NCBI GenBank assembly: GCA_964482645.1
Contig: CAYZYQ010000004.1
Coordinates: 1 to 63,775 of the forward strand
Direction: 5' to 3'
Origin: an uncultured Lentisphaeraceae bacterium
GTDB taxonomy: Bacteria; Verrucomicrobiota; Kiritimatiellia; RFP12; UBA1067
Length of the DNA stretch: 63,775 nt
A program made the position numbers and the translations under genes. Shown here piece by piece: positions 32,483 through 56,917 of this stretch (positions are counted from its first letter, which is position 1; each line of letters starts with the position of its first letter). The notes beneath the pieces are model-generated. The model was not told where the DNA came from. It ran no database searches and saw only the letters and a list, made by a program, of their open reading frames with translations.

Positions 32483-32612
32483 ACTCGGTGGGAACGAGGA
32501 AAGAGTTTATCAAATGTTTCCGTGGTATGCAAGGGGCGAGACAAAAATACTACAAAAGAACGTTAGGGGGTTGTCCGTGTGCTGTGCTATGATGTATTCG
32601 TCTGGAGGCACA

Positions 32613-33770
32613 ATGACAATGACCGAACGTGAAGCGCGAATAGCATTTAACATGATTCCCACGGTGGGCGCGGTGACGCTGGATCGTCTGATGGCGGAAG
32701 TCGGCGGCCGAGCGGCGGACGCCTATGCGCTCTATCCCGAAAAGAAGGACTGGGAGGGGCGTCTTCCGGACTGGGAAGGCGAAATCGCGCGCGCGGAGAA
32801 GATGCACGTTCGGATCGTAACGGCCGTCGATCCGGACTATCCGCCGCAGTTGAAGGAAATCGCCTCGCCACCGCTGGCCCTCTACGTGGTGGGAGACGTG
32901 GCGGCCCTGTCCCAGGCGGGCGTGGCGATTGTCGGGACGCGGCGGGCGACGCCTTATGGGCGCGAGACGGCGGAACGGCTGGCGTCGAACCTGGTGGGAC
33001 GTGGCTGGGCGGTCTATTCGGGGCTTGCGCGTGGCATCGACGCGGCGGCTCATCGCGGGGCGTTGCTGGCGGGCGGCGTGACGGTCGGCGTTCTGGGCGG
33101 TGCGCTCGATCGGTTTTTCCCGGAGGAGAACCGCGATCTGGCGCGGCAGATGGTTGAGAAACACGGTGCGGTCGTGAGCGAGTTTCCGTTCGGGCGGCCG
33201 CCCGACGTGCAGACGTTTCCGCAGCGCAACCGAATCGTGTCGGGTCTTTCCCGCGGCGTCGTGGCAGTGGAGTGTCCCATCCACAGCGGCACGTTAATCA
33301 CGTGTTCGCGGGCCGTAGAACAGGGGCGCGCCGTGATGGCCGTACCGGGGCGGATCGATTCGGTGGCGTCGGCGGGTTGTCTGCACTTGATTCGCGAAGG
33401 TGCGCGGATGGTGACGTGCGTGGACGACATCGTGGAAGAGCTGTCGCCACTCGGCCGGGCGCCGTCCGCCCCGCCACCGGCGCGGGCAGCTCTGCCGTCG
33501 GGTGGAAAAACTGTACGGACGCCTCCGCCTCCTAAAAAGAGGAAGCCGCCCGTGCTACCGCTCGAGGCGAAGATCTCGTTGGAGGAATCGCTCGTCCTTC
33601 GCGCCGTGCCGGAATCGGGGACGACGGGCGACCACGTGGCGGCGGCGACGAACTTCCCGATGTCCAAGGTGAATGCGCTGCTCGTGGCTCTCCGCCTCAA
33701 GGGTCGGGTGCGTTTCTTGCCCGGAAACCGCGTGGCACCCGTTGACATGGAACCGCGTGGTACCCGTTGA
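32613..33770 (+). CDS. dprA: DNA-processing protein DprA/Smf; C-terminus altered by island insertion
   Basis: AIVGTRRATPYG, SGLARGIDAAAH, FPQRNRIVSGLS, SGTLIT, AVPG, C-terminal winged helix; GGAGG RBS before ATG 32613. Confidence 0.93.
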   Translation: MTMTEREARIAFNMIPTVGAVTLDRLMAEVGGRAADAYALYPEKKDWEGRLPDWEGEIARAEKMHVRIVTAVDPDYPPQLKEIASPPLALYVVGDVAALSQAGVAIVGTRRATPYGRETAERLASNLVGRGWAVYSGLARGIDAAAHRGALLAGGVTVGVLGGALDRFFPEENRDLARQMVEKHGAVVSEFPFGRPPDVQTFPQRNRIVSGLSRGVVAVECPIHSGTLITCSRAVEQGRAVMAVPGRIDSVASAGCLHLIREGARMVTCVDDIVEELSPLGRAPSAPPPARAALPSGGKTVRTPPPPKKRKPPVLPLEAKISLEESLVLRAVPESGTTGDHVAAATNFPMSKVNALLVALRLKGRVRFLPGNRVAPVDMEPRGTR

Positions 33771-33773
33771 CAT
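33723..33773 (+). repeat. Tandem pair of left junction repeats (attL-like)
   Basis: GGAAACCGCGTGGCACCCGTTGACAT (33723-33748) then GGAACCGCGTGGTACCCGTTGACAT (33749-33773); each differs by one base from 38031-38056. Confidence 0.85.
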
Positions 33774-34244
33774 GGTGAATTGCAACCTACGTGGCGCAGG
33801 ACGTCCCTAAACCGTCTTGGCAAGACGTGAATGGTAGCCATATGCGGACGCTCCTTTCAGCGGGCGTCTGTGTATTTTGGAGATTCCCCAATTTTTTCGG
33901 GTACGAAAATCGTCGACCCCTATAAATAAAGGGCGACGTCTCGGTTTTCACATTGCGCCAAGTGAAAATTCGGCTGTGGGAACGTGGCGCACGTTTCCGT
34001 CTTCCCGGCGTGGCTCAATCTCGTGCATATCGTCATCCACGCAAAGCTGCGCCTCGTCCGGCACGGGCGCCTCCCAGTTGACTTTTGATGCGATGGGTAT
34101 ATTGGTTTGATCCTTTGTTTCGGATTTTTCGGGGCAAGGGTGGCTTGCTTGTCGCGCACGGATGTCTCCTGAAAAGCGGAGTTGAAGTCAATGACGCATT
34201 TACCCGTCAATCCGTGCGGACGAGTTGAGCCGACCGTGAAGCTT

Positions 34245-34720
34245 AGATTACGTTGCGGACGAATCCATTTCAGAATCCCAAGCCTCCAGTTCATAGCCAG
34301 TTTCCGTAGTTTATCTCCATATTCATAGTCAATTCAAGTAGTTTCACGGTTGTTTTCACGTTTCACATAGAAACCCCATCCGTTCCATTTTTTCCGTTCC
34401 GTTTTGTAGGATTACGTTGCGGACGAAATTGTCGTGCGGCGGGATGGCGATGTGGAGGGAAAGCATTTCGGGGGTTTCAATTTTTGGGTGGAGGATCGGG
34501 CGTTTTTGTGTTTGGCGGTCGGGCTGGTTACGGTCGGATTGATTGGCGGTCAAATCTGTTGGTGATCGGGCCGTTTGGTGGTCAAACCGGTTAGTGGTTG
34601 GACAGTTTTCCATCTTACAGATGTCAATGACAGTTCGTCCGCAACATAATCTCACGAAACACAGGAGATTGATTTATCCACGATTCTGCAACTGAAAGGA
34701 ATTCGTCCGCAACGTAATCT
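34245..34720. repeat. Four copies of 18-bp GATTACGTTGCGGACGAA in nested inverted arrangement
   Basis: + copies 34246-34263 and 34410-34427; - copies 34634-34651 (one mismatch) and 34702-34719. Confidence 0.9.
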
Positions 34721-34766
34721 CACATTCCCGTTTCAGTCGAATGACTCGTTTGGTAGAATGGACGCC

Positions 34767-35191
34767 ATGGTGATTGAACGTACACTTCCATTGTCCAAGA
34801 AGCTCCTCCGCCATTCGAGAAGCTCCGGTCGGGAAGGGTTGGCTTCCGACATTCACGAAGCCCTGACTTCAAATGAAAAGAGGTTTCCGGTCAGAAGAAA
34901 CGGGAGATTCAGAAGACCGTGGCATGCGATTCCGGGAGAATCGGTAGCCTGGTCGCCGACCTCGAATGCTTCCTCGACAACAGCCTCATCTTCGACGACG
35001 GCGGCGCGATCGTCGGGCGGCGCGGCGGGGTGAAGCGCTGGCTGCAGGAGAACATTCCCGCGCTCTACCTGCGCTACACGACCGTCATGCCCTACAAGGC
35101 CGTCCGCGCAAAACCGTTCGGAGTGCCCTTATCCCAGATTTTCCGGGATAAGGGTGCGTTTCCGCTTGCCTTGACGCAGGTGAAGTGCTAG
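34767..35191 (+). pseudogene. Frame-broken gene remnant of unknown function
   Basis: TGG-TAGAAT-7 nt-ATG start at 34767. A protein-like high-GC3 stretch (RIGSLVADLECFLDNSLIFDDGGAIVGRRGGVKRWLQENIP) lies in a different frame at about 34940-35100 and ends at a palindrome. Confidence 0.45.
35126..35156. repeat. Palindromic element (copy 2 of 248-275)
   Basis: CCCTTATCCC-AGATTTTCC-GGGATAAGGG. Confidence 0.75.
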
Positions 35192-35616
35192 ACTGTGCCG
35201 CGTACATGGGCGAAGGAGTTTTTCGTTCTTTCACATAGGCGGACGGCCCATGGTCCGCCACCGCGCCGGAGGCGAAGCGATTCGCGTCCGGTAGAACCTC
35301 GGCAGAACGTGTCCTAGTGATTTTGGGCGCGAACCCCGAGGGGAGCCGCAGGGTTCCGAGAAGGACTGCGGCGGCGTACGCATACTTGCGTATTTGGCTT
35401 TGAGAGAAAACGACCAAATTTCATTCAAAGAAGTCGAATATGTGGGATGCGCTACGTGGAGTATTCCACGTGGCGTGTTTTCTATTCGTGTTTCTTTGTA
35501 GGCGCTTGGTCGTGCCTCTCTCAAGACAGGAATTTGAAGACACGCCACGTTCCTTTTTTCGCGTCGGATGTGGAGGGTGTCAAACGATTGACGCGAAGAG
35601 ATCGGAGTTCTAGTGT

Positions 35617-35769
35617 ATGTCAAGCGAAGGTAGTAGAATATTTGGGAAAGTCATCTTTTTTATAATTGCAGTGCCGATTGCCATTGTATTGGGAATGGTA
35701 TTTCCTGGTGTTGCACATGCCGTCCTAGCACATGGTGTTATGGTTCTTTATAGGGAGATCTTCCCATAA
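35617..35769 (+). CDS. 50-aa small membrane protein (below the ORF-track cut-off)
   Basis: MSSEGSRIFGKVIFFIIAVPIAIVLGMVFPGVAHAVLAHGVMVLYREIFP; GGAG upstream; first gene of a co-oriented cluster. Confidence 0.6.
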   Translation: MSSEGSRIFGKVIFFIIAVPIAIVLGMVFPGVAHAVLAHGVMVLYREIFP

Positions 35770-35875
35770 CAGAACAGCAAAAGCGGCTTCAATTTTTGGT
35801 CTTGTTTAATCATGTCAACGCGGATACTCCTATCCGAATGAACTCGAAGGAATGTCGTAAGTGAAAGGCGTAGGA

Positions 35876-36190
35876 ATGGCTGTGTTGCATGAAAACAAGA
35901 AGTTTCAATACCAACCTCAAAAAGGAGACCTCAAAATGGACGATTATGTACACGATACAGTTATGGGATATCCTGACACTCAGACAGGGTATTGGGAAGG
36001 TTGGCACTTTTCCGCCAATTGCGAGACAATTACAGAGGGTTGCATAATCAAACCATTTGACTATGATTGTTACCAAGACCAGTTTGTATGCCTGTCGGCG
36101 GTAAACGGCGGCTGTCACATGCCAAGAGGCAGGAGGAGGCCTGAAGCTTTCGGAAGGCTTTCCATGGAAATTTTCCTTGTAGCTCAATAA
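35876..36190 (+). CDS. Hypothetical protein (~104 aa; Cys/Asp/aromatic-rich)
   Basis: Open frame with AGGA before ATG 35876, 13 bp from the next gene; no recognised motif. Confidence 0.6.
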   Translation: MAVLHENKKFQYQPQKGDLKMDDYVHDTVMGYPDTQTGYWEGWHFSANCETITEGCIIKPFDYDCYQDQFVCLSAVNGGCHMPRGRRRPEAFGRLSMEIFLVAQ

Positions 36191-36203
36191 GGGGGAAGAA
36201 ATA

Positions 36204-36830
36204 ATGGAACATTTACTGATGAAGGCTGCGGTTGCGCTCTGCAAGGCATTACACAAAAAAGGACCGCGGGTTTTGGGGAAGGAACTCGCTGGAATCGTAG
36301 AGAAACACGCGATTGCAGTTGCAGTTGCTGGGCTAGGTACCGCATGGTTGCCTGGAGTTGGTGCTACTGCAGCTATGTTGACGAGCGTCGGATTTGTATG
36401 GTCGATGTACGTTCGGATCAGTTCAAGGATAGGCCTCCCGTTTAGTAAGCATATACTCAAATCAGTGGCGACGGCGATAGGTACAAACATCGTTTCATCT
36501 CTAGCCAGTTCTGTGATAATTGGATCTGCGCTTTCTTTTATTCCAGGTTTAGGCAGTATTGGCGCTTCCGCATTGATGGCCGGGGTGGCATTTTCGCTTA
36601 CATGGACAAGTGGGATTGTTTATTTCAAAGTGCTGACTCGTTTTTGCGAAGCGGGTGTCAATTTTGAAAAAGTCAGCGAAAAGGATTTAAAGGCAATGGC
36701 GAAGGAAGTAGTCGAGCAGGAAGATATTAAGGCGATGATGAAACAGGCCAAGCGCCAATTCAAAGAGGCTAAAGCTCGTGGAGATCTCAAGAAATCAGAC
36801 GACAATGTGAAACCCATGGAGGAAATGTAA
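36204..36830 (+). CDS. DUF697/YcjF-like membrane protein
   Basis: IVEKHAIAVAVAGLGTAWLPGVG, FVWSMYVRISSRIGLPFS, ALSFIPGLGSIGA; charged helical C-tail. Confidence 0.6.
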   Translation: MEHLLMKAAVALCKALHKKGPRVLGKELAGIVEKHAIAVAVAGLGTAWLPGVGATAAMLTSVGFVWSMYVRISSRIGLPFSKHILKSVATAIGTNIVSSLASSVIIGSALSFIPGLGSIGASALMAGVAFSLTWTSGIVYFKVLTRFCEAGVNFEKVSEKDLKAMAKEVVEQEDIKAMMKQAKRQFKEAKARGDLKKSDDNVKPMEEM

Positions 36831-36831
36831 T

Positions 36832-37038
36832 ATGTCCTCATCCTATTATGTTAATCGGAAATGTTGTGCCACATGCCGATTTTGGGACGGAGATAGGCGT
36901 CCAGAGTTTCGTGCCAACCGTCTGTATGCGGTGATTGTATCGGGGATGGCTGCGCCATGTATGGCCAAGCCTAATTCAGCCAAATCATCTCCGGTGAACT
37001 ATTGCCCATGCTGGTCGAAATCCCCACAATTGACATGA
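36832..37038 (+). CDS. 68-aa Cys-rich putative metal-binding protein
   Basis: CCATCRFWDG...C...YCPCW; tightly packed between its neighbours. Confidence 0.6.
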   Translation: MSSSYYVNRKCCATCRFWDGDRRPEFRANRLYAVIVSGMAAPCMAKPNSAKSSPVNYCPCWSKSPQLT

Positions 37039-37053
37039 CAGGGAGCAATACAC

Positions 37054-37866
37054 ATGGACTACCATCAATATGTGCATCCGAATGACGAGGCGGCCATATC
37101 TAAACTCAAGGCGATACCAGGGTTCAATATCGCAATGCGTATGTTCATGAAGTTTGGCGTAGAACAATATTGCCGCGCACTTTACATGGCCAATCACATT
37201 AGATTATCCCCCAGACAATTACCGAAGGTATACAACCTTCTACCTCCTATATGCGAAAAACTTGGAATAACTATCCCTGAACTCTATCTACAAATGTATC
37301 CTACGCCCAATGCTTATACGGTTGGTGACAAAAGGAATTGCATTGTCGTGACAAGCGGACTTCTTGATTGCCTTGAGGACGAAGGAGAATTGAGTGCCGC
37401 TCTTGCGCACGAGTGTGGACATATTGCCTGTAGGCATGTGTTTTATTCCACAATGGTACAAATGATGTTCAACTTCGGTGGTCAATACGAAATCGTGCAG
37501 AAAATTCAGGCGCCGTTGGCGCTTGCGTACAACTTTTGGGTACGACAAAGTGAACTTTCCGCCGATCGTGCCGCTGTCGTGTGTCTTGGTAACGTGGTAA
37601 CGCCAATCAACATGATTTTACGACTTGCCGGCGGACCATTTCGATATACCGGTGAGCTGGATCTTGAGGAATATGCCGAACAGATTATGGAAAGCGAGAG
37701 TTTGCAGAAAGATGGCGCATGGCAGAAATTTCTCAGTGATTGCGTGGAGATGGGTGAAGACCATCCGTTTACGTCGACACGGGTCAGGGAATTGTTGCAG
37801 TGGGGCGATGGGGTACGGTCATTTAAGTCAATCGAATGTTCGGATGATAAGAAAGCTTTACCTTGA
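37054..37866 (+). CDS. M48-family (HtpX/Ste24-like) zinc metallopeptidase
   Basis: PNAYTVG, IVVTSGLLD, ELSAALAHECGH (HExxH), ELSADRAA, HPFTSTRV. Confidence 0.9.
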   Translation: MDYHQYVHPNDEAAISKLKAIPGFNIAMRMFMKFGVEQYCRALYMANHIRLSPRQLPKVYNLLPPICEKLGITIPELYLQMYPTPNAYTVGDKRNCIVVTSGLLDCLEDEGELSAALAHECGHIACRHVFYSTMVQMMFNFGGQYEIVQKIQAPLALAYNFWVRQSELSADRAAVVCLGNVVTPINMILRLAGGPFRYTGELDLEEYAEQIMESESLQKDGAWQKFLSDCVEMGEDHPFTSTRVRELLQWGDGVRSFKSIECSDDKKALP

Positions 37867-37906
37867 ATTGACATCAATGATCCTCTCTTTCATACCGCAC
37901 GGCAAA

Positions 37907-38019
37907 GCGGAACTAAACGCAAGTCCCTCCCCGGGAGGGAAGGGGGAATTTCCTGTCACTCCTCGACTATGCCCCGTACCAAAGGAGTAAACGCAAGCCG
38001 TTCTTGCATTTAGTTCCGC
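37907..38019. other. 113-nt self-complementary element (structured RNA or MITE-like)
   Basis: Terminal IR GCGGAACTAAACGCAAG / CTTGCATTTAGTTCCGC (16/17), with internal hairpins. Confidence 0.55.
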
Positions 38020-38030
38020 AAATAACATCT

Positions 38031-38056
38031 GGAAACCGCGTGGTACCCGTTGACAT
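38031..38056 (+). repeat. Right junction repeat (attR-like) containing the nusA -35 box
   Basis: GGAAACCGCGTGGTACCCGTTGACAT. Confidence 0.85.
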
Positions 38057-38078
38057 TTCGCCGATAAAACGGTAATAT
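38050..38078 (+). promoter_or_regulatory. Promoter of the nusA-infB operon
   Basis: TTGACA-17 bp-TAATAT. Confidence 0.7.
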
Positions 38079-38156
38079 ACTCCCTCGTTTCACGGTGGTT
38101 CAGCGAATCACCGCAAGGTTTGTATTGCTTTTTGACATGAGAGGAGCGAGTTGAGA

Positions 38157-39431
38157 ATGGCCATGAACAACGATTTGTTGGCGATCGTGAGCTATATTGA
38201 GCGCGAACGCGGGGTCGAACGCGAAATCGTGCTGACGGCGATTGAACAGGCGATCCAGCAGGCGGCACGGCGGAATCCGGACGTCACCAACGATTTGCGC
38301 GTGGCCATCGACCGGAAGGATCTCTCGCTCCATGTCTACGACACGCTTGTCGTTTCCGACGAGGATGTCGGTACGGGGTTCGTCTCCGTCGCCCGCGCCC
38401 GTCGCTTCAACCCCAACGTGAAGGAAGGGGACACGATCGAGGTCGAGATGCCGGCGTCGCGTCTGGGGCGCATTGCCGCGCAGACGTCCCGTCAGATGAT
38501 CATGCAGAAAATCCGCGAGGCGGAGCGTTCGAACGTCTTTACCGAATACAAGAACCGCGTGGGCGAAATCGTCAGCGGTACGGTCACGACGGTTACCCAG
38601 CGGCACGACCTCTACGTGCTCGTCGGCAAGACGGAGATGATTCTGCCGAGCAAGGAGCGGATTCCCACGGAGGAATACAACGTGGGCGACATGATCCGGG
38701 CGATCGTCCACTCCGTGAAGCCGGAGTCCAACGGCCCGGCGGTGACGTTGAGCCGCGCCTCCGGCAAGTTCGTCCAAAAGCTCTTCAATCTGGAAGTTTC
38801 CGAAATCGCCGATGGCGTGGTGGAAATCATGGGCGTGGCGCGCGATCCGGGCTTCCGCTCGAAGATCGCCGTTCGCACGCACGATGAAAAGGTCGATCCT
38901 GTCGGCGCGTGCGTGGGTTTGAAGGGTGCGCGTGTGCGCAACATCGTGCGCGAGTTGAATGGCGAGAAACTCGACATCGTGCGTTGGTCGGACGATATTA
39001 AAGTGTTCGTCGCGCAGGCGCTGGCGCCGGCCAAGTTGGAGACGATCGAGGTCGATCCGAACGGGGACAAGATCGTCCGCGTGACGGTGGCGCCGGATCA
39101 GTACTCGCTGGCGATTGGCAAGCGCGGCCAGAACGTTCGTCTGACGAAGGCGTTGACGGGGTGGCGCGTGGAAATCACGAAGGCGCTGGCGTTGGCGAGT
39201 TTCGAGGATCAGAAGGCGGCGGCCATCAAGTTGCTGGCCGACATGTTCTCCATTTCGATGGGCGTGGCCACGCAGTTGGCCGACGCGGGCTATCTGACGG
39301 TCGACGGCATTGTCGAGAGCGACGAGGCGGATTTCGTGGCGTCGACGGGGCTGGACGAGGTGACGGCGAAGGGCATCTACGCCGCCGCCCGGGCCGTCAG
39401 CGAACTGACGAACGGCACATCCGACCTCTAA
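38157..39431 (+). CDS. nusA: Transcription termination/antitermination factor NusA
   Basis: GRIAAQTSRQMIMQKIREAER, S1 and KH domains, ARDPGFRSKIAV, DPVGACVG, AIGKRGQNVRL. Start may instead be TTG 38151. Confidence 0.95.
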   Translation: MAMNNDLLAIVSYIERERGVEREIVLTAIEQAIQQAARRNPDVTNDLRVAIDRKDLSLHVYDTLVVSDEDVGTGFVSVARARRFNPNVKEGDTIEVEMPASRLGRIAAQTSRQMIMQKIREAERSNVFTEYKNRVGEIVSGTVTTVTQRHDLYVLVGKTEMILPSKERIPTEEYNVGDMIRAIVHSVKPESNGPAVTLSRASGKFVQKLFNLEVSEIADGVVEIMGVARDPGFRSKIAVRTHDEKVDPVGACVGLKGARVRNIVRELNGEKLDIVRWSDDIKVFVAQALAPAKLETIEVDPNGDKIVRVTVAPDQYSLAIGKRGQNVRLTKALTGWRVEITKALALASFEDQKAAAIKLLADMFSISMGVATQLADAGYLTVDGIVESDEADFVASTGLDEVTAKGIYAAARAVSELTNGTSDL

Positions 39432-39494: not shown

Positions 39495-42179
39495 ATGAGA
39501 GTCTACGAATTTGCAAAGAAAACGGGAACGACTTGCGCAACAGTCATGCGTGTGGCCGAGAAGAACGACATCGAGGTCTATTCGCCGCTGTCCGAGTTGG
39601 AGGATTCCGACGTGGAGGCGTTGAGCGCGGGATTCCATCGCATGGGTCTTGCGGCGCTGAAAGCCGAAACGCTCGCCGTGGCGGAGAAGCGCCGGACGAA
39701 AGCCGTGAAAGCGGCGGCCGCCCGTCAGCAGAAGGATCGGGTACAGACCGCCGAACTTGAAGCGGCGCGTCAGCGGGCGATCGCAGCGGCCGAGGGTCGG
39801 CCGTTTACTGCGCCGTCCGCCACGGCCGTGGCAGAAGTGCCGCCGCCCGCCACCGAGGAATCCGTCGCCGCACCGGTGGCGGAGCGTGAGGCCGAGGATG
39901 AAATCAAGGTGACACTCCCCGAGCTCCCCAAGGTGTCGTTCGAGATGTCCGAACCGGAAGAGGCCGACGACAAGGGCGAGTCCGACGAGAAGATCGAGGA
40001 CGATGACGAGGATGACGACGCGGACGACTATCTGCACGGCAAGGATCGCCGGACGGAAAGCAAGGCCCAGACGTCCATGAAGCCCCATCAGCAGCCGTTG
40101 CAGAAACCGGCCGCCGCTGGACGGAAGGGCGACAAGAAGGCCGCCCGTCCCGCCGAGAAGGAGAAGCCGGCTGCCGCGCCGACGGCCGACAAGAAAAAGA
40201 AGCCCGTCATCGCGGTGGCGCCACCGCCGCGTCCGACCCCGCCGCCGACGCGCGTGGGTGGAACGCGCGCGGGCTTTTCGTCCGTGTCGATGCGCGTGAG
40301 CCGCCCGCTCACGCCGCAGATTTCGATTGGCGTTGGCACGTCGCCCGCGCCCGCCGCCGTGCCGCCGCCGAAGCCGACGATTTCGCTGTCCGTCAATACG
40401 CGGGAAATCTCCGTGCGCGGCGCGATCGTGGTCAAGGAACTCGCGCTCAAACTCGGCATCCGCCCGAACCGCTTGATTGCGGACTTGATGGGCTTGAAGA
40501 TTCTCGCGTCGATCAACCAGCGCGTCGAGCCGGACGTGGCCGCGAAGGTGGCGCAGAAGTACGGCTACAAGGTCAACATCGAACACGCCCGCGACGCCGC
40601 GAACAAGAAGCCGGTTCTGAAGGCCATTGACGCGGACGACGAGATTCCAGAGGATAAGCCCGAGCAGATGAAGCCGCGGCCGCCGGTCGTCACGTTCCTC
40701 GGCCACGTCGACCACGGTAAGACGACGCTCATGGACTACATTCGCCACGCCCATGTGGCGGCGGGTGAAGCGGGCGGCATCACGCAGCAGATTTCCGCCT
40801 ACCAGGTGGACGTGCAGGGCCGCAAGATCACGTTCCTCGATACGCCCGGCCACGCCGCGTTCAACGCGATGCGCCAGCGCGGCGCCCAGTTGACGGACGT
40901 CGCCGTGATCATCATCGCCGCGGATGACGGCATCATGCCGCAGACCGAGGAGGCGATCAAGTTCGCCCGCCAGGCCGGCGTCCAGATCATGGTGGCCATC
41001 ACCAAGTGTGACAAGCCGACGGCCAACGCCCAGCGCGTGATGCAGCAGTTGCAGAAAGCGGGCCTCACGCCGGAAGACTGGGGTGGCGACATTGTTTGCT
41101 GTGAAGTCTCCGGTGCGACCGGGCAGGGCGTCGAGAATCTGCTGGACATGGTTCTCCTCCAGGCCGACGTGCTGGAACTCTCCGCGAACCCGGATCGCCG
41201 TGCGAACGGCTACGTGATCGAGGCCGAACTTGAGCAGGGATTCGGACCCACGGCCACGCTCCTCGTGACGGGTGGTACGCTGAAGGTCGGCGACGCGATT
41301 CTCATCGGCGAACATTTCGGCAAGGTGCGTTCGCTCATCGACGACCGGGGCCGCCGCGTGAAGGAGGCGGGTCCGTCGACGCCCGTCAAGTGTACGGGTC
41401 TTTCCGGCGTTCCGGAAGCCGGCGCCGAGTTCCGTGTGATGCTGGATGAAAAACGCGCCCGGACGCTGGCCGAAGAGACGGCCCGCGCCCGTAAGGAGCA
41501 GGAACTTTCCGCGCCGAAGGCACTCTCGCTCGACGACCTCATGAGCCAGATGAGCGCGAACGACAAGCGCGAATTGAGCGTTGTGGTGAAGTCGGACACG
41601 CAGGGTTCGCTGGAAGCCATCGTCGAGGCGTTGAACGGAATCAAGAGCGAAAAGGTCTCCCTCAAGATTATCGGTACGGGCACGGGCAACGTGTCGCTGA
41701 CGGATGTCAAGAGCGCGGCGGCCGGCCACGCGGTGATTATCGGATTCGACATCGGGTGCGATTCCGGCGTCCAGCAGCAGGCGCGTCACGACGGTGTGCG
41801 CATCAGTTCGTTCCGCATCATCTACGAACTGATCGACCATGTGAAGCAGTGTATGCTCGACCTGCTGCCGCCCGAATACAAGGAAGTTATCAAGGGTCAT
41901 GCGGCGATCAAGGCCGTCTACGACATCGGCAAGATCGGCAAGATTGCCGGTTCGCAGATGCTCGACGGCGTACTTACGTCGACGGCGCGTTACCGTATCC
42001 TGCGCGGCAAGGAGAAGATTTGGGACGGCAAGCTCCAGACGCTCCGCCACTTCAAGGACGAGGTCAAGGAAGTGACGGGCCAGCAGGAATGCGGCGTGTG
42101 CTTCCAGAACTTCGAGGACTTCGCCGTGGGCGACACGATCGAATGCTACCTGCTCGAAGAACTTCCGCGTTCGCTGTAA
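39495..42179 (+). CDS. infB: Translation initiation factor IF-2
   Basis: RPPVVTFLGHVDHGKTTL, AGGITQ, FLDTPGHAAF, DDGIMPQT, ECG. Confidence 0.97.
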   Translation: MRVYEFAKKTGTTCATVMRVAEKNDIEVYSPLSELEDSDVEALSAGFHRMGLAALKAETLAVAEKRRTKAVKAAAARQQKDRVQTAELEAARQRAIAAAEGRPFTAPSATAVAEVPPPATEESVAAPVAEREAEDEIKVTLPELPKVSFEMSEPEEADDKGESDEKIEDDDEDDDADDYLHGKDRRTESKAQTSMKPHQQPLQKPAAAGRKGDKKAARPAEKEKPAAAPTADKKKKPVIAVAPPPRPTPPPTRVGGTRAGFSSVSMRVSRPLTPQISIGVGTSPAPAAVPPPKPTISLSVNTREISVRGAIVVKELALKLGIRPNRLIADLMGLKILASINQRVEPDVAAKVAQKYGYKVNIEHARDAANKKPVLKAIDADDEIPEDKPEQMKPRPPVVTFLGHVDHGKTTLMDYIRHAHVAAGEAGGITQQISAYQVDVQGRKITFLDTPGHAAFNAMRQRGAQLTDVAVIIIAADDGIMPQTEEAIKFARQAGVQIMVAITKCDKPTANAQRVMQQLQKAGLTPEDWGGDIVCCEVSGATGQGVENLLDMVLLQADVLELSANPDRRANGYVIEAELEQGFGPTATLLVTGGTLKVGDAILIGEHFGKVRSLIDDRGRRVKEAGPSTPVKCTGLSGVPEAGAEFRVMLDEKRARTLAEETARARKEQELSAPKALSLDDLMSQMSANDKRELSVVVKSDTQGSLEAIVEALNGIKSEKVSLKIIGTGTGNVSLTDVKSAAAGHAVIIGFDIGCDSGVQQQARHDGVRISSFRIIYELIDHVKQCMLDLLPPEYKEVIKGHAAIKAVYDIGKIGKIAGSQMLDGVLTSTARYRILRGKEKIWDGKLQTLRHFKDEVKEVTGQQECGVCFQNFEDFAVGDTIECYLLEELPRSL

Positions 42180-46076: not shown

Positions 46077-46151
46077 TGGCAGCCCCCAGGAGAGTCGAAC
46101 TCCTCTTCTTAGGATGAGAACCTAATGTCCTAGCCGATAGACGAGGGGGCC
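46077..46151 (-). tRNA. tRNA-Glu (CUC)
   Basis: GGCCCCC...GGGGGCT-G-CCA; anticodon loop TTCTCAT. Confidence 0.95.
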
Positions 46152-46155
46152 AGTC

Positions 46156-46240
46156 TGGTGCACCCGGTGGGAGTCGAACCCACACACCTTGCGGCACAAG
46201 AACCTGAATCTTGCGTGTATGCCAATTTCACCACGGGTGC
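46156..46240 (-). tRNA. tRNA-Leu (CAG)
   Basis: GCACCCG...CGGGTGC-A-CCA; anticodon loop TTCAGGT; long variable arm. Confidence 0.95.
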
Positions 46241-46251
46241 GATTGGGGGAT

Positions 46252-46280
46252 AGTATGCCATAATCTCCGTCCGTCGTCAA
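46252..46280 (-). promoter_or_regulatory. Promoter of the tRNA-Leu/tRNA-Glu pair
   Basis: TTGACG-17 bp-CATACT on the minus strand. Confidence 0.7.
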
Positions 46281-46374
46281 CCCCCGCCGTCGGGAATTTT
46301 GCGAGGGCGGAAATCCCAAATTCAATTTTAGATTTCCGCCCTCGTCGGGGGCGGTTGTGGTATAATGGCTTGGA

Positions 46375-46935
46375 ATGAAGAGATTGTTCATACTCGCCGG
46401 GGCGAACGGTAGTGGCAAGAGCACGATAGCAAAAGTTCTTTTGCCGTCTGAGAAGATTGACTACGTCAATCCAGATGATATTGCGCGTGAACTGAATCCG
46501 CAAGATTTCACTTCCGTAAAGATTGCCGCTGGTCGGGAGGCTCTGCGCCGTATTGACGATCTGATAATACGGAATAAATCGTTTGCCATAGAATCAACAC
46601 TTTCCGGCCTTACCTACGTTAAAACGATTGAGCGAGCCAAAAGGGCGGGATACACGACGATATTGGCTTATGTGTACGTTGATTCCGCAGATGTATGCAT
46701 CGCCCGTATAATTGCGCGGGTTAAGAACGGTGGTCATCCTGTTCCCGATGTCGATGTTCGTCGTCGGTATGTGCGCAGCAAACGGAACTTCCTTGACGTT
46801 TATGCGTCATTGGTAGATCATTGGATGCTTTACTACAACGGAGGTTCCGACCTGTCGTTGGTTGCGCATGGGAACGGAAGCGTCAACGTACTTTCGCAGG
46901 AGCGTTTTTCCGCGTTCAAGGAGGATTTATGCTAG
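46375..46935 (+). CDS. Zeta-toxin-like P-loop kinase/ATPase (COG4185-type)
   Basis: ILAGANGSGKST, YVNPDDIA, SFAIESTLSG, RVKNGGHPVP, DVRRRY. Confidence 0.85.
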   Translation: MKRLFILAGANGSGKSTIAKVLLPSEKIDYVNPDDIARELNPQDFTSVKIAAGREALRRIDDLIIRNKSFAIESTLSGLTYVKTIERAKRAGYTTILAYVYVDSADVCIARIIARVKNGGHPVPDVDVRRRYVRSKRNFLDVYASLVDHWMLYYNGGSDLSLVAHGNGSVNVLSQERFSAFKEDLC

Positions 46936-47141
46936 ATATTGTTGAAAAAATGACACGCATCGGAAACGCTGCGGTCAAGGCCGCTCAGGAGGAGAATCGT
47001 CGTAACGGCATTGCAAACGTCTATGTTTTGAACGGACGGCTCGTCTGGCAGTTACCTGATGGAAGTATTACGACAAACCCTCCTACCGATACGAATTTAC
47101 CAACCGTCCCGCCTCATTCGTTTGCGAGCAGGAAGTCGTAG
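46929..47141 (+). CDS. Small protein coupled to the zeta-like ATPase (putative antitoxin/partner)
   Basis: Overlaps the upstream stop; IGNAAVKAAQEENRRNGIANVYVLNGRLVWQLPDG resembles small partners of such ATPases. Confidence 0.65.
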   Translation: MLDIVEKMTRIGNAAVKAAQEENRRNGIANVYVLNGRLVWQLPDGSITTNPPTDTNLPTVPPHSFASRKS

Positions 47142-48319
47142 GCGTTGATTTGGCGGACGCCGTTGTTGTCGGCGGGCAAGTCCATGTCAAGTGTGATGAG
47201 CGTTTTGGGATGGTGGTCGCGGATGGATAGAAGGGGCGCGAATTCGCGTTCGCGCGTTGCCGCGTCGCGCACGGTTTCCGCGACTTGGTAGTAGCGTACG
47301 TCGTCTCCGTCCCGTGTGACGAAGTCGACCTCGCGTCCGCCGTGCTGTCCGACCATGACGTTCCGCGACCGTCGGAGGAGTTCGAGGTAGACGACGTTTT
47401 CGAGGATGTGGCCTGAATCGCCAGAACGATTGCCCAGAAGGCGGTATCGAAGGCCGATGTCGGACGCATAGTACTTGCAACCGCTTGAGAGAAGTTCCCG
47501 TCCGCGAATGTCATAGCGTTCGGCTTTCCAGAACAGGAACGCATCGCACAATGCGGCCACGTAGCTTTCAACCGTGGTGCCGTTCGTCTTCATGCCACCG
47601 GTGGAAAGCGACCCCGCGATGTTTCGCAGACTCGTCACGTTTCCGATGTTGTCGAAAAGATAGCGTGCGATGCGATCGACCAGCCCTGCATCGGAAAGTC
47701 TTCGCCGTTGGAGGACGTCCTTGACGAGAACCGTGTTGTAGATACCGTCCAGATACGTTCCGACAAGTCCCGCATCTCGTCCAAGCGACACGGCATAGGG
47801 GAATGAACTGAAACGCAAATAATCGAGATATTGCGCGGCGTAGTCGCCCTGTGCGCCGACGGCCGTGCAATACTCACGGAAAGAAAGCGGTTGCATCCGT
47901 AATCCAACGTAGCGTCCTGACAAGTAGGTGGCTAATTCGCCGGAAAGCATATAGGCATTTGAACCCGTGATGTAGACATCGATGTCCGCTCGGGCATGAA
48001 GCCCGTCGACCAGTCTTTCAAATTGGGGAATGCGTTGTACCTCATCTAGGAAAATGTAGGTGCGTTCATGTTTGGAAAGGCGCAGCTTGATGTCGTTCCA
48101 GATGTCCCGCCATGTGTCGAACGCCGGCGTGTCGGGGTCTTCAAAATTCAGAACGACCATCTGCTTTTCTGAAACGCCGCTTTCAGCCAGTTTCTTCCGA
48201 AACAACGCAAGCAGGGTGGATTTGCCACACCGCCGAATGCCCGTCACGACCTTGATGAGGTCGTGATCCCGCCAGCGTTCAAGCCAGTGCGTGTAAAAAG
48301 GGCGATCAATGTAGGTCAT
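47114..48319 (-). CDS. AAA+ ATPase with DUF4143 (COG1373-type)
   Basis: VVTGIRRCGKSTLL, IFLDEVQ, YITGSN, KYYASDIGLR, LENVVYLEL, EVDFV, YYQV. Confidence 0.9.
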   Translation of the reverse strand: MTYIDRPFYTHWLERWRDHDLIKVVTGIRRCGKSTLLALFRKKLAESGVSEKQMVVLNFEDPDTPAFDTWRDIWNDIKLRLSKHERTYIFLDEVQRIPQFERLVDGLHARADIDVYITGSNAYMLSGELATYLSGRYVGLRMQPLSFREYCTAVGAQGDYAAQYLDYLRFSSFPYAVSLGRDAGLVGTYLDGIYNTVLVKDVLQRRRLSDAGLVDRIARYLFDNIGNVTSLRNIAGSLSTGGMKTNGTTVESYVAALCDAFLFWKAERYDIRGRELLSSGCKYYASDIGLRYRLLGNRSGDSGHILENVVYLELLRRSRNVMVGQHGGREVDFVTRDGDDVRYYQVAETVRDAATREREFAPLLSIRDHHPKTLITLDMDLPADNNGVRQINAYDFLLANE

Positions 48320-48381
48320 GGCAAAATTCCTCAATGAAGAAGACGCGGACAGTAAATCATTTTCTGACCGCACAGTCAAGG

Positions 48382-54833: not shown

Positions 54834-55823
54834 ATGGATTATTCAAATGCGTCCAGTCAGATTGCGGCCCAAGGCGAATTGGCTGCGAAAATCAAGGAAG
54901 AAGTCGGCAAGGTGATTGTCGGTCAGGAGAAGCTGATCGACCGGCTCGTGCTGGCGCTCGTGACGGACGGCCACATCCTTCTGGAAGGTGTGCCGGGGCT
55001 TGCGAAGACACTGAGTGTCAACACGCTGGCGAAAGTTCTTGGGCTGGACTTCAAGCGCATTTCGTTCACGCCCGACCTGTTGCCGGCCGACGTCGTCGGC
55101 ACGTTGATCTACTCGCCGAAGACGGGCGAGTTCACACCGAAGAAAGGACCGGTCTTCACGAACCTGCTGCTGGCGGACGAAATCAACCGCGCGCCCGCGA
55201 AGGTGCAGAGCGCGCTGCTGGAGTCCATGCAGGAAAAGCAGGTCACGATCGGCGAAACTACGTATGCGCTGCCGAAGCCGTTTCTTGTGCTGGCCACGCA
55301 GAACCCAATCGAGCAGGAAGGCACGTACCCGTTGCCGGAGGCGCAGGTCGACCGTTTCATGTTCAAGTGCCTTGTGGAAACGCCGAGCCGCGAGGACGAG
55401 CGGCGCATCATGCAGCGTTTCGCCCAGCAGGCGAAGACGCCGGACGTCGCGACGGTTTGCACGATGGACGACATCGTCGCGCTGCGCGAGACGTTGAAGG
55501 AGGTCTACTGCGACGAGAAGGTGGGCGACTACATTCTCGATGTCGTGTTCGCGACGCGCGAGCCGGAAAAGACGAAGGGGCTTGAATCTTTGAAGGAGCA
55601 GATTCAGGTCGGCTGTTCGCCCCGCGCCACGCTCTGCCTCAACAAGGCGGCTCGTGCGAACGCGCTTCTGCATGGCCGTGCCTACGCGACGCCGCAGGAC
55701 GTGAAGGAAGTTGCGCACGACGTGCTGCGCCACCGCATCCTTCTTACGTACGAGGCCGAAGCGGAGAACGTGACGAGCGACGCGATCATCGACAAGATCC
55801 TCTCGACAATCCCCGTGCCGTGA
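54834..55823 (+). CDS. moxR: MoxR-family AAA+ ATPase
   Basis: LEGVPGLAKT, RISFTPDLLPAD, LLADEINRAPAKVQSALLE, ATQNPIEQEGTYPLPEAQVDRF, HDVLRHR. Confidence 0.95.
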   Translation: MDYSNASSQIAAQGELAAKIKEEVGKVIVGQEKLIDRLVLALVTDGHILLEGVPGLAKTLSVNTLAKVLGLDFKRISFTPDLLPADVVGTLIYSPKTGEFTPKKGPVFTNLLLADEINRAPAKVQSALLESMQEKQVTIGETTYALPKPFLVLATQNPIEQEGTYPLPEAQVDRFMFKCLVETPSREDERRIMQRFAQQAKTPDVATVCTMDDIVALRETLKEVYCDEKVGDYILDVVFATREPEKTKGLESLKEQIQVGCSPRATLCLNKAARANALLHGRAYATPQDVKEVAHDVLRHRILLTYEAEAENVTSDAIIDKILSTIPVP

Positions 55824-56917
55824 TGTCCATGGCTCTTGCCAGATTTTCGGATCGGGAACGGCAACTTGCGCTGTGGCCGAATCTGGATTTTCAACATCGT
55901 GACGTTTTCCAGCCACGGTGTTCGCCCTGTTGTGACGACGTGTCATCTCGTGCGCTGGCGCGGATCGATTTGGGGGATAGTTTCCTCTGTTGCGACAATT
56001 GGCCGGCACCGACAGTCATCATTTCCGACGGGCCATATGGATTGGCCAGTTATCCAGGCGATCCCGCTTCACCGGAGGGATTGGCCGACTGCTACGAACC
56101 ATTTGCGAAAAAGTGGTATGAACGGGCGTTGCCAGCCACGACGCTATGGTTCTGGAATTCCGAACAGGGATGGGCGAATTGCCATCGGATGCTTGAGGCC
56201 AGCGGGTGGGAATTTCGAAATTGCCACATCTGGGATAAAGGAATTGCGCATGTTGCGGGGAATTGTAATACGCGAACCATTCGCAAGTATCCCGTCGTGA
56301 CGGAGGTTTGTGCGCAGTACGTGCGTAAAAATCGGCTTGTTTCGGCTGGTCATTCTTTGCCGCTCAAGGAATGGTTGCGAGCCGAATGGAAACGTTCGGG
56401 ACTGCCTTTTCGTCTGACAAACGCGGCGTGTGGTGTCAAAGACGCCGCGACGCGCAAGTACTTTGCCACGGATGCCATGTGGTATTTCCCGCCGTCCGAT
56501 GCGTTTGTCGCAATCGCCGCTTATGCGAATCGCCATGGACGTACCGAGGGGCGGCCTTATTTTGCGAAGGACGATGGAACGGCGTTTTCGGCCAGTGAAT
56601 GGGATTTGATGCGGGCGAAGTTTCATTGTGAGATCGGAGTCTCGAACGTTTGGCATTATCCGGCCGTGCGAGGACGCGAACGTATCAAGAAAGGTTCGGC
56701 GTGTCTGCACATGAACCAGAAGCCAATCGAACTTTTGATGCAGATTGTTCGGTCGTCGTCAGATCCCGGTGATGTCGTGTGGGAGCCATTTGGCGGTCTC
56801 TGCTCTGCGTCTGTCGCGGCAGTCCGCTTGGGACGTTCCGCATACGCCGCCGAACGCAATCCCGAATACCATGCTGTAGCGAAAAGGAGGCTCGATGAAG
56901 AACTTGCGCAATGTTAG
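55823..56917 (+). CDS. Beta-class amino (N6-A or N4-C) DNA methyltransferase
   Basis: IISDGPY catalytic motif precedes HMNQKP and the VVWEPFGGLCS SAM-binding motif; ATG overlaps the moxR stop (TGATG). Confidence 0.85.
   Translation: MSMALARFSDRERQLALWPNLDFQHRDVFQPRCSPCCDDVSSRALARIDLGDSFLCCDNWPAPTVIISDGPYGLASYPGDPASPEGLADCYEPFAKKWYERALPATTLWFWNSEQGWANCHRMLEASGWEFRNCHIWDKGIAHVAGNCNTRTIRKYPVVTEVCAQYVRKNRLVSAGHSLPLKEWLRAEWKRSGLPFRLTNAACGVKDAATRKYFATDAMWYFPPSDAFVAIAAYANRHGRTEGRPYFAKDDGTAFSASEWDLMRAKFHCEIGVSNVWHYPAVRGRERIKKGSACLHMNQKPIELLMQIVRSSSDPGDVVWEPFGGLCSASVAAVRLGRSAYAAERNPEYHAVAKRRLDEELAQC

What the first reader, a model, noticed from the sequence alone, without database searches (positions are those of the whole stretch)
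33723..38078. Islet integrated in the dprA 3' end, with an att core that contains the nusA -35 box
Seen: a 26-bp repeat occurs twice in tandem on the left (33723-33773) and once on the right (38031-38056). Reading the right copy in the dprA frame gives GNRVVPVDISPIKR-stop, with the TAA (38073-38075) inside the nusA -10 box. That is a plausible ancestral dprA end, now replaced by GNRVAPVDMEPRGTR. The repeat includes TTGACA, so insertion leaves the essential nusA-infB promoter intact and creates -35 boxes facing into the islet. The extra left copy suggests a repeated integration/excision scar. Inference: a non-tRNA integration hotspot served by an integrase encoded elsewhere.
Basis: partly seen in the sequence, partly recalled or inferred. 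Interest (0 to 1): 0.62.

Follow-up and report, generated by a model that had tools for sequence, protein, structure and literature searches.

The report
Decayed integrated islet at dprA–nusA
A 4.3-kb piece of foreign DNA sits at a precise 26-bp site covering the end of dprA and the nusA promoter's -35 box; it has no integrase, looks old and immobile, and is an ordinary remnant of an integrated mobile element at a target site I found no report of.

Summary
A 26-nt sequence occurs three times, at 33723-33748, 33749-33773 and 38031-38056, and nowhere else in the window. It brackets 4.28 kb of 49% GC DNA in a 63% GC genome. Sister lineages have one copy of the core followed directly by the nusA flank, so DprA there ends ...GNRVAPVDISPIKR*. 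The core holds the -35 (TTGACA) of the best sigma-70-like site in the region, and the old dprA stop codon lies in its -10.

The islet has no recombinase or recognisable remnant of one. Its left 1.8 kb is debris: short high-copy dispersed repeats, four copies of an inverted-repeat motif, and a 59-codon fragment of a multi-copy Kiritimatiellae gene. Its right 2.5 kb is single-copy cargo, a conserved module of a 208-aa protein, a 68-aa Cys-rich protein and an M48 peptidase.

The islet is present in every strain of this lineage that I could see and has diverged about as much as its flanks. At least four related lineages are empty. No excision junction, attP or cognate integrase was found.

Best reading: a decayed, att-flanked (CIME-like) remnant of a site-specific integration. 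The "hotspot", "scar" and "integrase elsewhere" claims remain unsupported.

The parts
32613..33770 (+). dprA (385 aa from the ATG that gene callers use; the longest ORF starts at 32514). The last 7 residues, MEPRGTR, are encoded by att copy 2.
   Evidence: Pfam DNA_processg_A 4.7e-72 plus DprA_WH ending at ...GN. Called as a 385-aa gene in ENA contigs. Tail translated.
33723..33748 (+). attL core (copy 1, C variant). Identical to the single core of empty sites.
   Evidence: Homology to L001/L031 ends exactly at 33748.
33749..33773 (+). Tandem second core copy (25 nt, T variant, one A shorter). It supplies the present dprA stop codon, TGA at 33768-33770.
   Evidence: Present in all islet-bearing contigs and in the ~98% sublineage.
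33777..33875 (.). Short high-copy dispersed repeat, block 1 (about 10-25x flank depth). It starts 3 nt after core copy 2.
   Evidence: depth profile, many variant unitigs, and unrelated sequence before 33776/33777 in the other copies.
33917..33987 (.). Short high-copy dispersed repeat, block 2 (about 10-30x), separated from block 1 by a single-copy spacer at 33880-33910.
34246..34719 (.). Four copies of the motif GATTACGTTGCGGACGAA (+ at 34246 and 34410; - at 34634 and 34702) around an array of ~15-nt repeats at about 34490-34615. These are ends of degenerate copies of a multi-copy inverted-repeat-bracketed gene unit. The region varies in structure between samples.
   Evidence: L138 variant. 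3-6x depth.
34937..35113 (+). 59-codon internal fragment (about residues 185-243) of the 344-390-aa multi-copy Kiritimatiellae protein; a pseudogene piece. The 90-aa ORF at 34919-35191 is a chimera containing it.
35559..35559 (.). Boundary between the multi-copy left part and the single-copy cargo. Logan contigs from at least 5 runs break here.
35861..36190 (+). 109-aa ORF, first in the tightly spaced plus-strand gene row. It was not found by tblastn in the homologous modules, so its status is uncertain.
36204..36830 (+). 208-aa protein (hydrophobic core, charged C-terminus), the first gene of the conserved three-gene module.
   Evidence: 436 representative clusters with E<=1e-3. Syntenic homologues of 56-68% identity. 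No Pfam, NCBIfam, PHROG or PADLOC hit.
36832..37038 (+). 68-aa Cys-rich protein, the second gene of the module.
   Evidence: Syntenic homologues of 63-82% identity.
37054..37866 (+). M48-family Zn-metallopeptidase (HECGH motif), 270 aa, the third gene of the module.
   Evidence: Pfam Peptidase_M48 2.3e-21. 866 homologues. The exact protein occurs only in this context.
37907..38019 (.). 113-nt hairpin closed by a 17-bp stem. Its right part, 37988-38027, is multi-copy in some runs and ends 3 nt before attR.
   Evidence: I8; -48.4 kcal/mol, z -2.9.
38031..38056 (+). attR core (T variant here; C in the islet-bearing strain of run X14).
   Evidence: Homology to empty sites resumes exactly at 38031.
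38050..38078 (+). nusA promoter-like site: -35 TTGACA inside the core, 17-nt spacer, -10 TAATAT. The ancestral dprA stop TAA (38073-38075) is the first half of the -10.
   Evidence: 10/12, best in the region. Same layout in the empty sites. L007 has TTGACT-17-TATCAT at the same place relative to the conserved leader hairpin.
38157..39431 (+). nusA (followed by infB at 39495-42179).
   Evidence: Pfam NusA_N and KH_5. Gene calls.

Best explanation
This is the decayed remnant of a mobile element that entered by site-specific recombination.

Its attB is a 26-bp core, GGAAACCGCGTGGCACCCGTTGACAT. That core encodes the last conserved residues of DprA (GNRVAPVD) and contains the -35 box of the nusA-infB promoter. 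Recombination with a matching sequence on a circular element duplicated the core. attL (33723-48) stayed joined to dprA, which now ends in seven element-encoded residues. attR (38031-56) stayed joined to the -10 box and nusA, so both host functions survived.

The element has since lost, or never had, its recombinase. Its attL-side 1.8 kb became a dump for short dispersed repeats and fragments of a multi-copy gene unit. What remains useful is a single-copy three-gene module: a 208-aa protein, a 68-aa Cys-rich protein and an M48 peptidase.

The islet is now inherited vertically as part of this lineage's chromosome.

Shown: the insertion, its exact borders, the core duplication, the ancestral dprA end, the absence of a recombinase gene, and fixation with co-divergence. 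Inferred: that a tyrosine-type integrase did the job, that the promoter-like site is the real nusA promoter, and that the element is no longer mobile.
For: - The repeat is non-random and unique to these three places.
- Empty sites in L001 and L031 have one C-variant core followed directly by the window's right flank. Homology breakpoints fall at 33748 and 38031.
- Further lineages in runs X32/X34, X36 and X37 are also empty.
- GC is 49% against 63% in the flanks.
- The cargo module has syntenic homologues of 56-82% identity in unrelated contexts, the closest in 50-53% GC contigs.
- The T variant occurs only in the element-side copies, while all empty sites have C. That fits an element-borne core.
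- No recombinase or excisionase domain appears in any islet ORF, even at E<=1.
- The left part is multi-copy debris.
- All long contigs carrying this DprA or NusA variant show the identical three-core islet.
- The ~98% sublineage carries it at the same site. Its divergence there is 1.7% in the cargo, 2.5% on the dprA side and 0.7% in nusA.
- The promoter-like site is the best in the region, and its layout is conserved in L007.
- CIMEs are defined as elements that lost their integration and transfer genes but kept attL and attR (PMC5704250).
Against: - No integrase, attP or circular junction was found anywhere, so the recombinase class is inferred only from the anatomy.
- The core shows no clear dyad symmetry by inspection.
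- Sequence next to both cores is repeat DNA to within 3 nt, so no arm-type sites can be recognised.
- A simple attP x attB exchange does not explain the third, tandem core copy.
- Only assembled contigs were available, not raw reads, so rare excision products could not have been seen.
- One unitig in run X14 suggests the site is not wholly static.
Confidence: 0.7

Rival explanations
1. One reading: the islet is a still-mobilisable, integrase-less element at an active integration hotspot, and a recombinase encoded elsewhere in the genome moves it in and out.
For: attL and attR are intact and 25/26 identical. The base at the polymorphic core position differs between strains: attR has C in X14's islet-bearing contig and T elsewhere. 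That could reflect recombination within the core. In X14 a 78-nt unitig (depth 17, against 12 for the islet and 25 for nusA) joins different DNA to CGTGGTACCCGTTGACAT plus the nusA flank. No diverged cargo homologue is present in that run. That is compatible with another occupant of the site.
Against: No empty site was seen within the lineage. All long contigs and 12+ runs show the same islet. The islet has co-diverged with its flanks. At least four sister lineages are empty rather than carrying other cargo. No attP or cognate integrase turned up in IMG/VR or JGI metagenomes, nor any recombinase among the candidates tested in the 64-kb window. The X14 evidence is a single short unitig that shares its attL contig with the islet form.
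Confidence: 0.15
2. The insertion was not made by an integrase. The 26-bp direct repeat would then be a long target duplication from a transposition-like or replication-slippage/microhomology event, possibly linked to the repeat families that fill the islet's ends.
For: No integrase is present. High-copy repeats abut both cores to within 3 nt. The extra tandem 25-nt copy shows that local duplication did occur at this spot.
Against: The islet ends carry no terminal inverted repeats. Other copies of the left-end repeat are preceded by unrelated sequence with no similar duplications. The right-end repeat is not multi-copy in most runs that hold the lineage. The element-side copies carry a variant (T) absent from all empty sites, which a pure target duplication would not give. 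A 26-bp core at the 3' end of a conserved gene, with the reading frame kept open, is the usual signature of site-specific integration (established knowledge).
Confidence: 0.08
3. Reverse polarity: the islet is ancestral at this locus, and the empty-site lineages lost it by precise recombination between the 26-bp repeats.
For: Recombination between attL and attR, whether site-specific or homologous, would restore exactly the single core seen in the empty sites.
Against: Four or more empty lineages, all with the same C core, stand against one occupied lineage. The more distant L007 has dprA and nusA separated by an unrelated ORF and has no core sequence. The islet's GC is 14 points below the genome's. 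Loss would still require an earlier site-specific gain.
Confidence: 0.05
4. An IMEX-type element integrated by the host XerC/XerD recombinases at a dif-like site.
For: It has no integrase of its own, and a core of about dif length (26-28 bp) is duplicated.
Against: By inspection the core has no 11-6-11 dyad of Xer-binding arms. It lies in the dprA coding end next to nusA-infB, not in an intergenic terminus site. The same sequence is simply the dprA end in several lineages.
Confidence: 0.02

Closest known systems
CIMEs (cis-mobilisable elements) and other decayed integrative elements of streptococci, e.g. at the fda or tRNA-Lys 3' ends (review PMC5704250)
   Same: Flanked by attL and attR direct repeats that include the 3' end of a conserved host gene. 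No integration or transfer genes. Small cargo. The host gene's reading frame is kept open.
   Different: No cognate autonomous element (ICE or IME) with the same att specificity is known or found here. No evidence of cis-mobilisation or accretion. The host phylum (Kiritimatiellota-like gut bacterium) and the target (dprA) differ. There is an extra tandem core copy instead of a distant third att site.
Integrase-bearing genomic islands at 3' or 5' ends of protein genes (SGI1 at trmE, GIsul2 at guaA, dusA-specific islands; PMC8409611, PMC9376610, PMC4482086 as listed)
   Same: A short core identical between element and host gene is duplicated on insertion. Composition is foreign. Empty sites exist in relatives.
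   Different: Those islands carry their own tyrosine integrase next to one att site, and excision has been shown experimentally. Here there is no integrase gene and no evidence of excision.
Pneumococcal prophage site attBscr (PMC12637031)
   Same: The duplicated core (22 bp there, 26 bp here) spans the 3' end of one gene and the promoter element of the downstream operon. Integration keeps both flanking functions intact.
   Different: That site is used by full prophages with integrases and is occupied in about 24% of genomes by varied elements. Here there is one decayed islet in one lineage. That target is an RNA gene; this one is a protein-coding end.
Pseudo-SCC elements at the rlmH (orfX) 3' end in staphylococci (from my own knowledge; not checked in the library)
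   Same: Recombinase-less cassettes bounded by direct repeats of the integration-site sequence at the 3' end of a conserved gene, sometimes with extra repeat copies.
   Different: SCC elements are moved by large serine recombinases (Ccr), have a 15-18-bp core and form arrays of several cassettes. None of this was established here.

Membership tests
Site-specifically integrated genomic island (integrase type) | Flanking direct repeats identical to the single core of the unoccupied attB | tested here: met
   Cores at 33723-48 and 38031-56 compared with the single core in L001 and L031. Breakpoints exact.
Site-specifically integrated genomic island (integrase type) | Integrase gene inside the island next to an att site | tested here: not met
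   No recombinase domain in any islet ORF (at E<=1). The closest cargo relatives show none either.
Site-specifically integrated genomic island (integrase type) | Excision to a circular form carrying attP and restoring attB | tested here: inconclusive
   No skip or circular joints across the cores in 12+ runs. However, only assembled contigs were available, and these drop rare variants.
Site-specifically integrated genomic island (integrase type) | Foreign composition and cargo with homologues in unrelated contexts | tested here: met
   49% GC against 63%. Module homologues found in other genomes.
CIME / decayed integrative element | Retains attL and attR but lacks integration and transfer genes | tested here: met
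   Definition from PMC5704250.
CIME / decayed integrative element | A related autonomous element with the same att specificity exists and can mobilise it | tested here: inconclusive
   The core is absent from JGI metagenome contigs and IMG/VR. The one 18-nt hit (L145) is a chance match inside a phage structural gene. The rest of this genome was not searchable. A single alternative junction unitig was seen in X14.
IMEX (Xer-dependent integrative element) | The core is a dif-like site: two ~11-bp inverted arms around a 6-bp centre, at the chromosome's dif | tested here: not met
   Inspection of the 26-nt core and its flanks shows no such dyad. The sequence is the dprA coding end in all relatives. 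The chromosomal dif itself was not located.
Transposon / insertion sequence with target-site duplication | Terminal inverted repeats at the element ends, a transposase, and identical short target duplications | tested here: not met
   No inverted repeat joins the two islet ends. No transposase domain. The duplication is 26 bp with an element-specific variant.

The most novel reading that the evidence does not exclude
The dprA-end/nusA -35 core is the live attB of an undescribed, trans-acting recombinase system in gut Kiritimatiellia. The site still turns over: the alternative junction in X14 and the C/T switching inside the core would be traces of this. The tandem 25-nt half-site would then be a functional part of the attachment site rather than an accident.
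Probability: 0.1. Interest if true: 0.55.

Novelty: new member of a known kind. Interest (0 to 1): 0.3.

Why it matters
It gives a cleanly resolved example, in an uncultured gut Kiritimatiellia-like lineage, of an integration site placed so that one 26-bp core protects both a gene end (dprA) and the promoter of an essential operon (nusA-infB). I found no report of dprA as an attachment site in the searchable literature.

In practice it flags a 4.3-kb strain marker, a conserved but unnamed three-gene M48 module, and several repeat families that break assemblies in these genomes. It does not change how genomic islands are understood.

Tried and rejected
1. Exact att core (23 nt, Y at the variable base) in JGI metagenome contigs and IMG/VR: no hit. 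The alternative-junction sequence in IMG/VR, the fetched loci and the window: no hit. The 18-nt right half-core in IMG/VR: one chance hit inside a phage structural gene.

2. Alternative cargo in more distant relatives (L002-L012): dprA-nusA synteny is not kept there, so they say nothing about this site.

3. I first took the multi-copy left part for the shared backbone of sister islets. Rejected. Only a 160-bp gene fragment matches the 80 loci fetched. The edge signal comes from short dispersed repeats whose other copies have unrelated neighbours.

4. I tested whether the multi-copy inverted-repeat-bracketed protein is a recombinase that could have moved the islet. It has no Pfam, NCBIfam, PHROG or PDB match. 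The AlphaFold model is low-confidence and all-helical, so no fold search was run. No target duplications were seen.

5. PADLOC, PHROGs and NCBIfam on the cargo gave nothing beyond a weak HtpX-like match for the M48 domain. The 208-aa protein is absent from PLSDB plasmids and INPHARED phages.

I used L001 and window stretches instead.

7. Lowering the identity threshold to 80% in X14 found no diverged cargo homologue.

Full report
**Organism and setting.** DprA relatives place the window in an uncultured gut or rumen lineage. The source records label it Lentisphaeraceae or Kiritimatiellia/Kiritimatiellae, and the runs that hold it are gut and faecal metagenomes. The local gene order is dapA-dapB, tRNA-Glu (minus strand), dprA, the islet, then nusA-infB-rbfA-truB.

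**The observation.** Copy 1 is 33723-33748 (GGCACC variant). A 25-nt copy follows head to tail at 33749-33773 (GGTACC variant, one A shorter). The third copy is 38031-38056 (GGTACC). A 23-nt version with up to three mismatches occurs only at these three places in the window, against 0 expected. Between the cores lie 4,282 bp of 49% GC DNA. The flanks are 63% GC.

**Is it an insertion?** Yes. This is the strongest result. Two independent assemblies of a sister lineage are L001 (a MAG contig) and L031 (a Logan contig). Their NusA is 99.8-100% identical to the window's and their flanking DNA 92-95% identical. Each has a single core, GGAAACCGCGTGGCACCCGTTGACAT, followed directly by TTCGCCGATAAAACGGTAATATACTCC..., which is the window's sequence from 38057 onward. 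Homology to the window stops at 33748 and resumes at 38031. DprA in those genomes ends ...FLPGNRVAPVDISPIKR*. More lineages, about 96% identical to L001, in runs X32/X34, X36 and X37 also run straight through the junction with the C-variant core. More distant relatives all keep ...FLPGNRV and then diverge. They do not keep dprA next to nusA, so they are uninformative. L007 has an unrelated ORF between the two genes.

**The promoter claim.** TTGACA (38050-55), 17 nt, TAATAT (38073-78) is the best sigma-70-like match in 33.5-38.3 kb, 10 of 12 positions, although the total number of such matches in the region is no higher than in shuffles. In empty sites the same layout lies inside the dprA coding end, and the dprA stop TAA forms the first half of the -10. 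L007 has TTGACT-17-TATCAT at the same distance from a leader hairpin (CGGTG...CACCG, window 38093-38113) that is conserved between the two. The -35 lies in the core and the -10 in the host arm of attR, so any core-duplicating integration leaves this site whole. That part of the reading is sound, although the promoter itself is only predicted. The two left-hand TTGACA copies have no -10 partner, and no promoter-like site is called there. In a metatranscriptome run (X13), single contigs span dprA-attL-34019 and 36586-attR-nusA. That is compatible with read-through, but DNA carry-over cannot be excluded.

**Anatomy of the islet: the left part.** The islet falls into two parts at about 35559, where Logan contigs from at least five runs break. 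The left 1.8 kb (53% GC) is multi-copy debris, and its depth in runs is several-fold that of the flanks. Fine mapping shows two short blocks, 33777-33875 and 33917-33987, at roughly 10-30x flank depth. A single-copy spacer separates them. Other genomic copies of these blocks are preceded by unrelated sequence, so they are small dispersed repeats and not the ends of sister islets.

Further in, the motif GATTACGTTGCGGACGAA occurs four times, twice on each strand at 34246-34719, around an array of ~15-nt repeats. One sample has a structural variant of this stretch, with extra motif copies and a longer array. Positions 34937-35113 are a 59-codon internal fragment of a 344-390-aa protein. That protein belongs to a very large family: at least 895 clusters at 90% identity, all labelled 'hypothetical', and Kiritimatiellae where named.

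In dozens of metagenome loci this gene is bracketed by an inverted copy of the same motif upstream and a direct copy near its stop. So the motif copies in the islet are ends of degenerate copies of that unit. None of the ten longest non-cargo ORFs has any Pfam match even at E<=1. No integrase or excisionase remnant is recognisable.

**Anatomy of the islet: the right part.** The right 2.5 kb (46.5% GC) is single-copy, with depth equal to the flanks. It holds a tightly spaced plus-strand gene row: a 109-aa ORF, a 208-aa protein, a 68-aa Cys-rich protein and a 270-aa M48 metallopeptidase, with gaps of 13, 1 and 15 nt. The last three form a conserved module. Syntenic homologues (56-68%, 63-82% and 70-78% identity respectively) occur in other contigs. 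They often sit beside an ECF sigma factor and a Ser/Thr kinase, and are often followed by a ~700-aa protein, DUF1232 and an LRAT-like gene. The closest relatives lie in 50-53% GC contigs.

The 208-aa family has 436 representative clusters but no model in Pfam, NCBIfam, PHROGs or PADLOC. It is absent from annotated plasmids and phages. Its function is unknown. Between the M48 stop and attR lies a 113-nt hairpin, 37907-38019. Its right part is multi-copy in some runs only.

**Population picture.** Every long contig carrying this DprA or NusA variant has the same islet with the same three cores, at 99.9% identity. Twelve DNA runs from three studies hold at least 93% of its words. A sublineage about 98% identical (runs X14-X20) has it at the same site. 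In X14 its divergence from the window is 1.7% in the cargo, 2.5% on the dprA side and 0.7% in nusA. So the islet has diverged along with the chromosome, and the tandem copy is present there too. I saw no joint that skips the islet and no circular junction. But all runs were available only as assembled contigs, which cannot show rare forms.

Two details hint that the site is not entirely static. In X14 the islet-bearing contig has C rather than T at 38044. A second 78-nt unitig (depth 17, against 12 for the islet and 25 for nusA) joins ...ATATTACAACTTCCCATGGGAATCTCCAAA to CGTGGTACCCGTTGACAT plus the nusA flank. No 80-90% homologue of the cargo exists in that run. The dprA-attL contig seems shared by both forms. 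I could not extend or find this sequence elsewhere.

**The extra left copy.** It carries the element-type T and lacks one A. It supplies the present dprA stop, giving a 7-residue tail instead of the 12 residues that would follow without it. A clean attP x attB exchange gives two cores, not three. Accretion of two elements followed by excision would restore one core. A deletion that left two cores exactly abutting is improbable. The more economical options are these: the incoming attP already carried a tandem core, or a local slippage duplication occurred (GG microhomology flanks the unit) followed by two point changes. The data do not choose between them. The 'integration/excision scar' reading has no specific support.

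**Mechanism and rivals.** The anatomy has four features: an exact core duplication at the 3' end of a conserved gene, the reading frame kept open, foreign composition, and clean empty sites. Together these form the standard signature of site-specific (typically tyrosine-recombinase) integration, and I give that reading about 0.7. The absence of any recombinase, the debris at the attL side and the co-divergence make it a decayed, att-flanked remnant. That matches the definition of a CIME in PMC5704250. The reasons are given under each.

**Comparison and novelty.** This is a new member of a known kind. The closest functional parallel for a core that protects both a gene end and a downstream promoter is the pneumococcal attBscr site (PMC12637031). 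I found no paper describing dprA/smf as an attachment site, which is not proof that none exists. A specialist would find the case tidy rather than surprising.

The side observation may deserve more attention than the islet itself. It is the very abundant family of inverted-repeat-bracketed genes, encoding an all-helical protein, that has no recognisable domain. A low-confidence structure model left its nature open.

Noticed in passing
window 34246-34719 and 34937-35113; L044:9371-10492, L048:6727-7917, L097:165-1284 and about 40 other loci: A very large family (at least 895 clusters at 90% identity, Kiritimatiellae where named) of 344-390-aa proteins with no domain hit and an all-helical, low-confidence model. 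Each gene is bracketed by a 22-25-nt inverted repeat: upstream, and about 60 nt before the stop. The unit has sharp borders and sits singly among housekeeping genes. It resembles an insertion sequence, but no transposase fold or target duplication is recognisable. In a subset (e.g. L042) it lies just upstream of an AEP-TOTE primase gene.
   Followed up: partly
window 33777-33875 and 33917-33987: Two short dispersed repeats at roughly 10-30x flank depth in every run examined, with many sequence variants and unrelated neighbours. They fold only weakly. The first begins 3 nt after att copy 2.
   Followed up: partly
window 37907-38019 (and 37988-38027): A 113-nt hairpin closed by a 17-bp stem (GCGGAACTAAACGCAAG / CTTGCATTTAGTTCCGC) between the M48 stop and attR. 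The 40 nt at its right end are about 8x multi-copy in runs X5 and X14 but single-copy in X15 and X17-X19.
   Followed up: partly
run X14, joining window 38039 onward: A 78-nt unitig (depth 17) joins ...ATATTACAACTTCCCATGGGAATCTCCAAA to the right 18 nt of the att core and the nusA flank. Its last ~13 nt loosely resemble the islet's own right end. In the same run the islet-bearing contig has C instead of T at 38044.
   Followed up: partly
L123-L130, L141-L144 (homologues of window 36204-37866): The module of a 208-aa protein, a 68-aa Cys-rich protein and an M48 peptidase is conserved in order. It recurs next to an ECF sigma factor plus a Ser/Thr kinase, and upstream of a ~700-aa protein, DUF1232 and an LRAT-like gene. 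In L123 the block lies between two genes with weak Y1_Tnp (IS200-like) hits. It could be an unnamed stress or conflict system.
   Followed up: partly
L138:9600-10244 versus window 34175-34700: One sample carries a structural variant of the islet's left part: an extra ~40-nt duplication containing the inverted-repeat motif, and an expanded array of ~15-nt GGTCAAACCnGTTGG-like repeats.
   Followed up: partly
window 38093-38113; L007:5331-5351: A hairpin (CGGTG-11 nt-CACCG) in the predicted nusA 5' leader is conserved between this lineage and a relative whose NusA is 72% identical. It may be a regulatory leader element. No Rfam family matched at gathering score.
   Followed up: no
window 35129-35156 and 248-275: A 28-nt near-identical (27/28) palindromic sequence (TTATCCC...GGGATAA) occurs in the islet and again 35 kb away near the start of the window.
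   Followed up: no
window 46077-48379: Directly after tRNA-Glu and tRNA-Leu genes come low-GC3 ORFs: a zeta-toxin/AAA_33-like kinase (46375-46935) and an AAA_14/DUF4143 ATPase (47114-48379, minus strand). This could be another small tRNA-adjacent islet.
   Followed up: no
window 55820-57818: Two overlapping low-GC3 ORFs: an N6/N4 DNA methylase (55820-56917) and a 307-aa protein with no domain hit (56895-57818). They may form a restriction-modification pair.
   Followed up: no
L007:4330-5270: In a more distant Kiritimatiellia MAG, a hydrophobic ORF of roughly 300 aa starts a few bases past the dprA stop and fills the dprA-nusA gap. So this intergenic position varies in the group by means other than the islet.
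   Followed up: no
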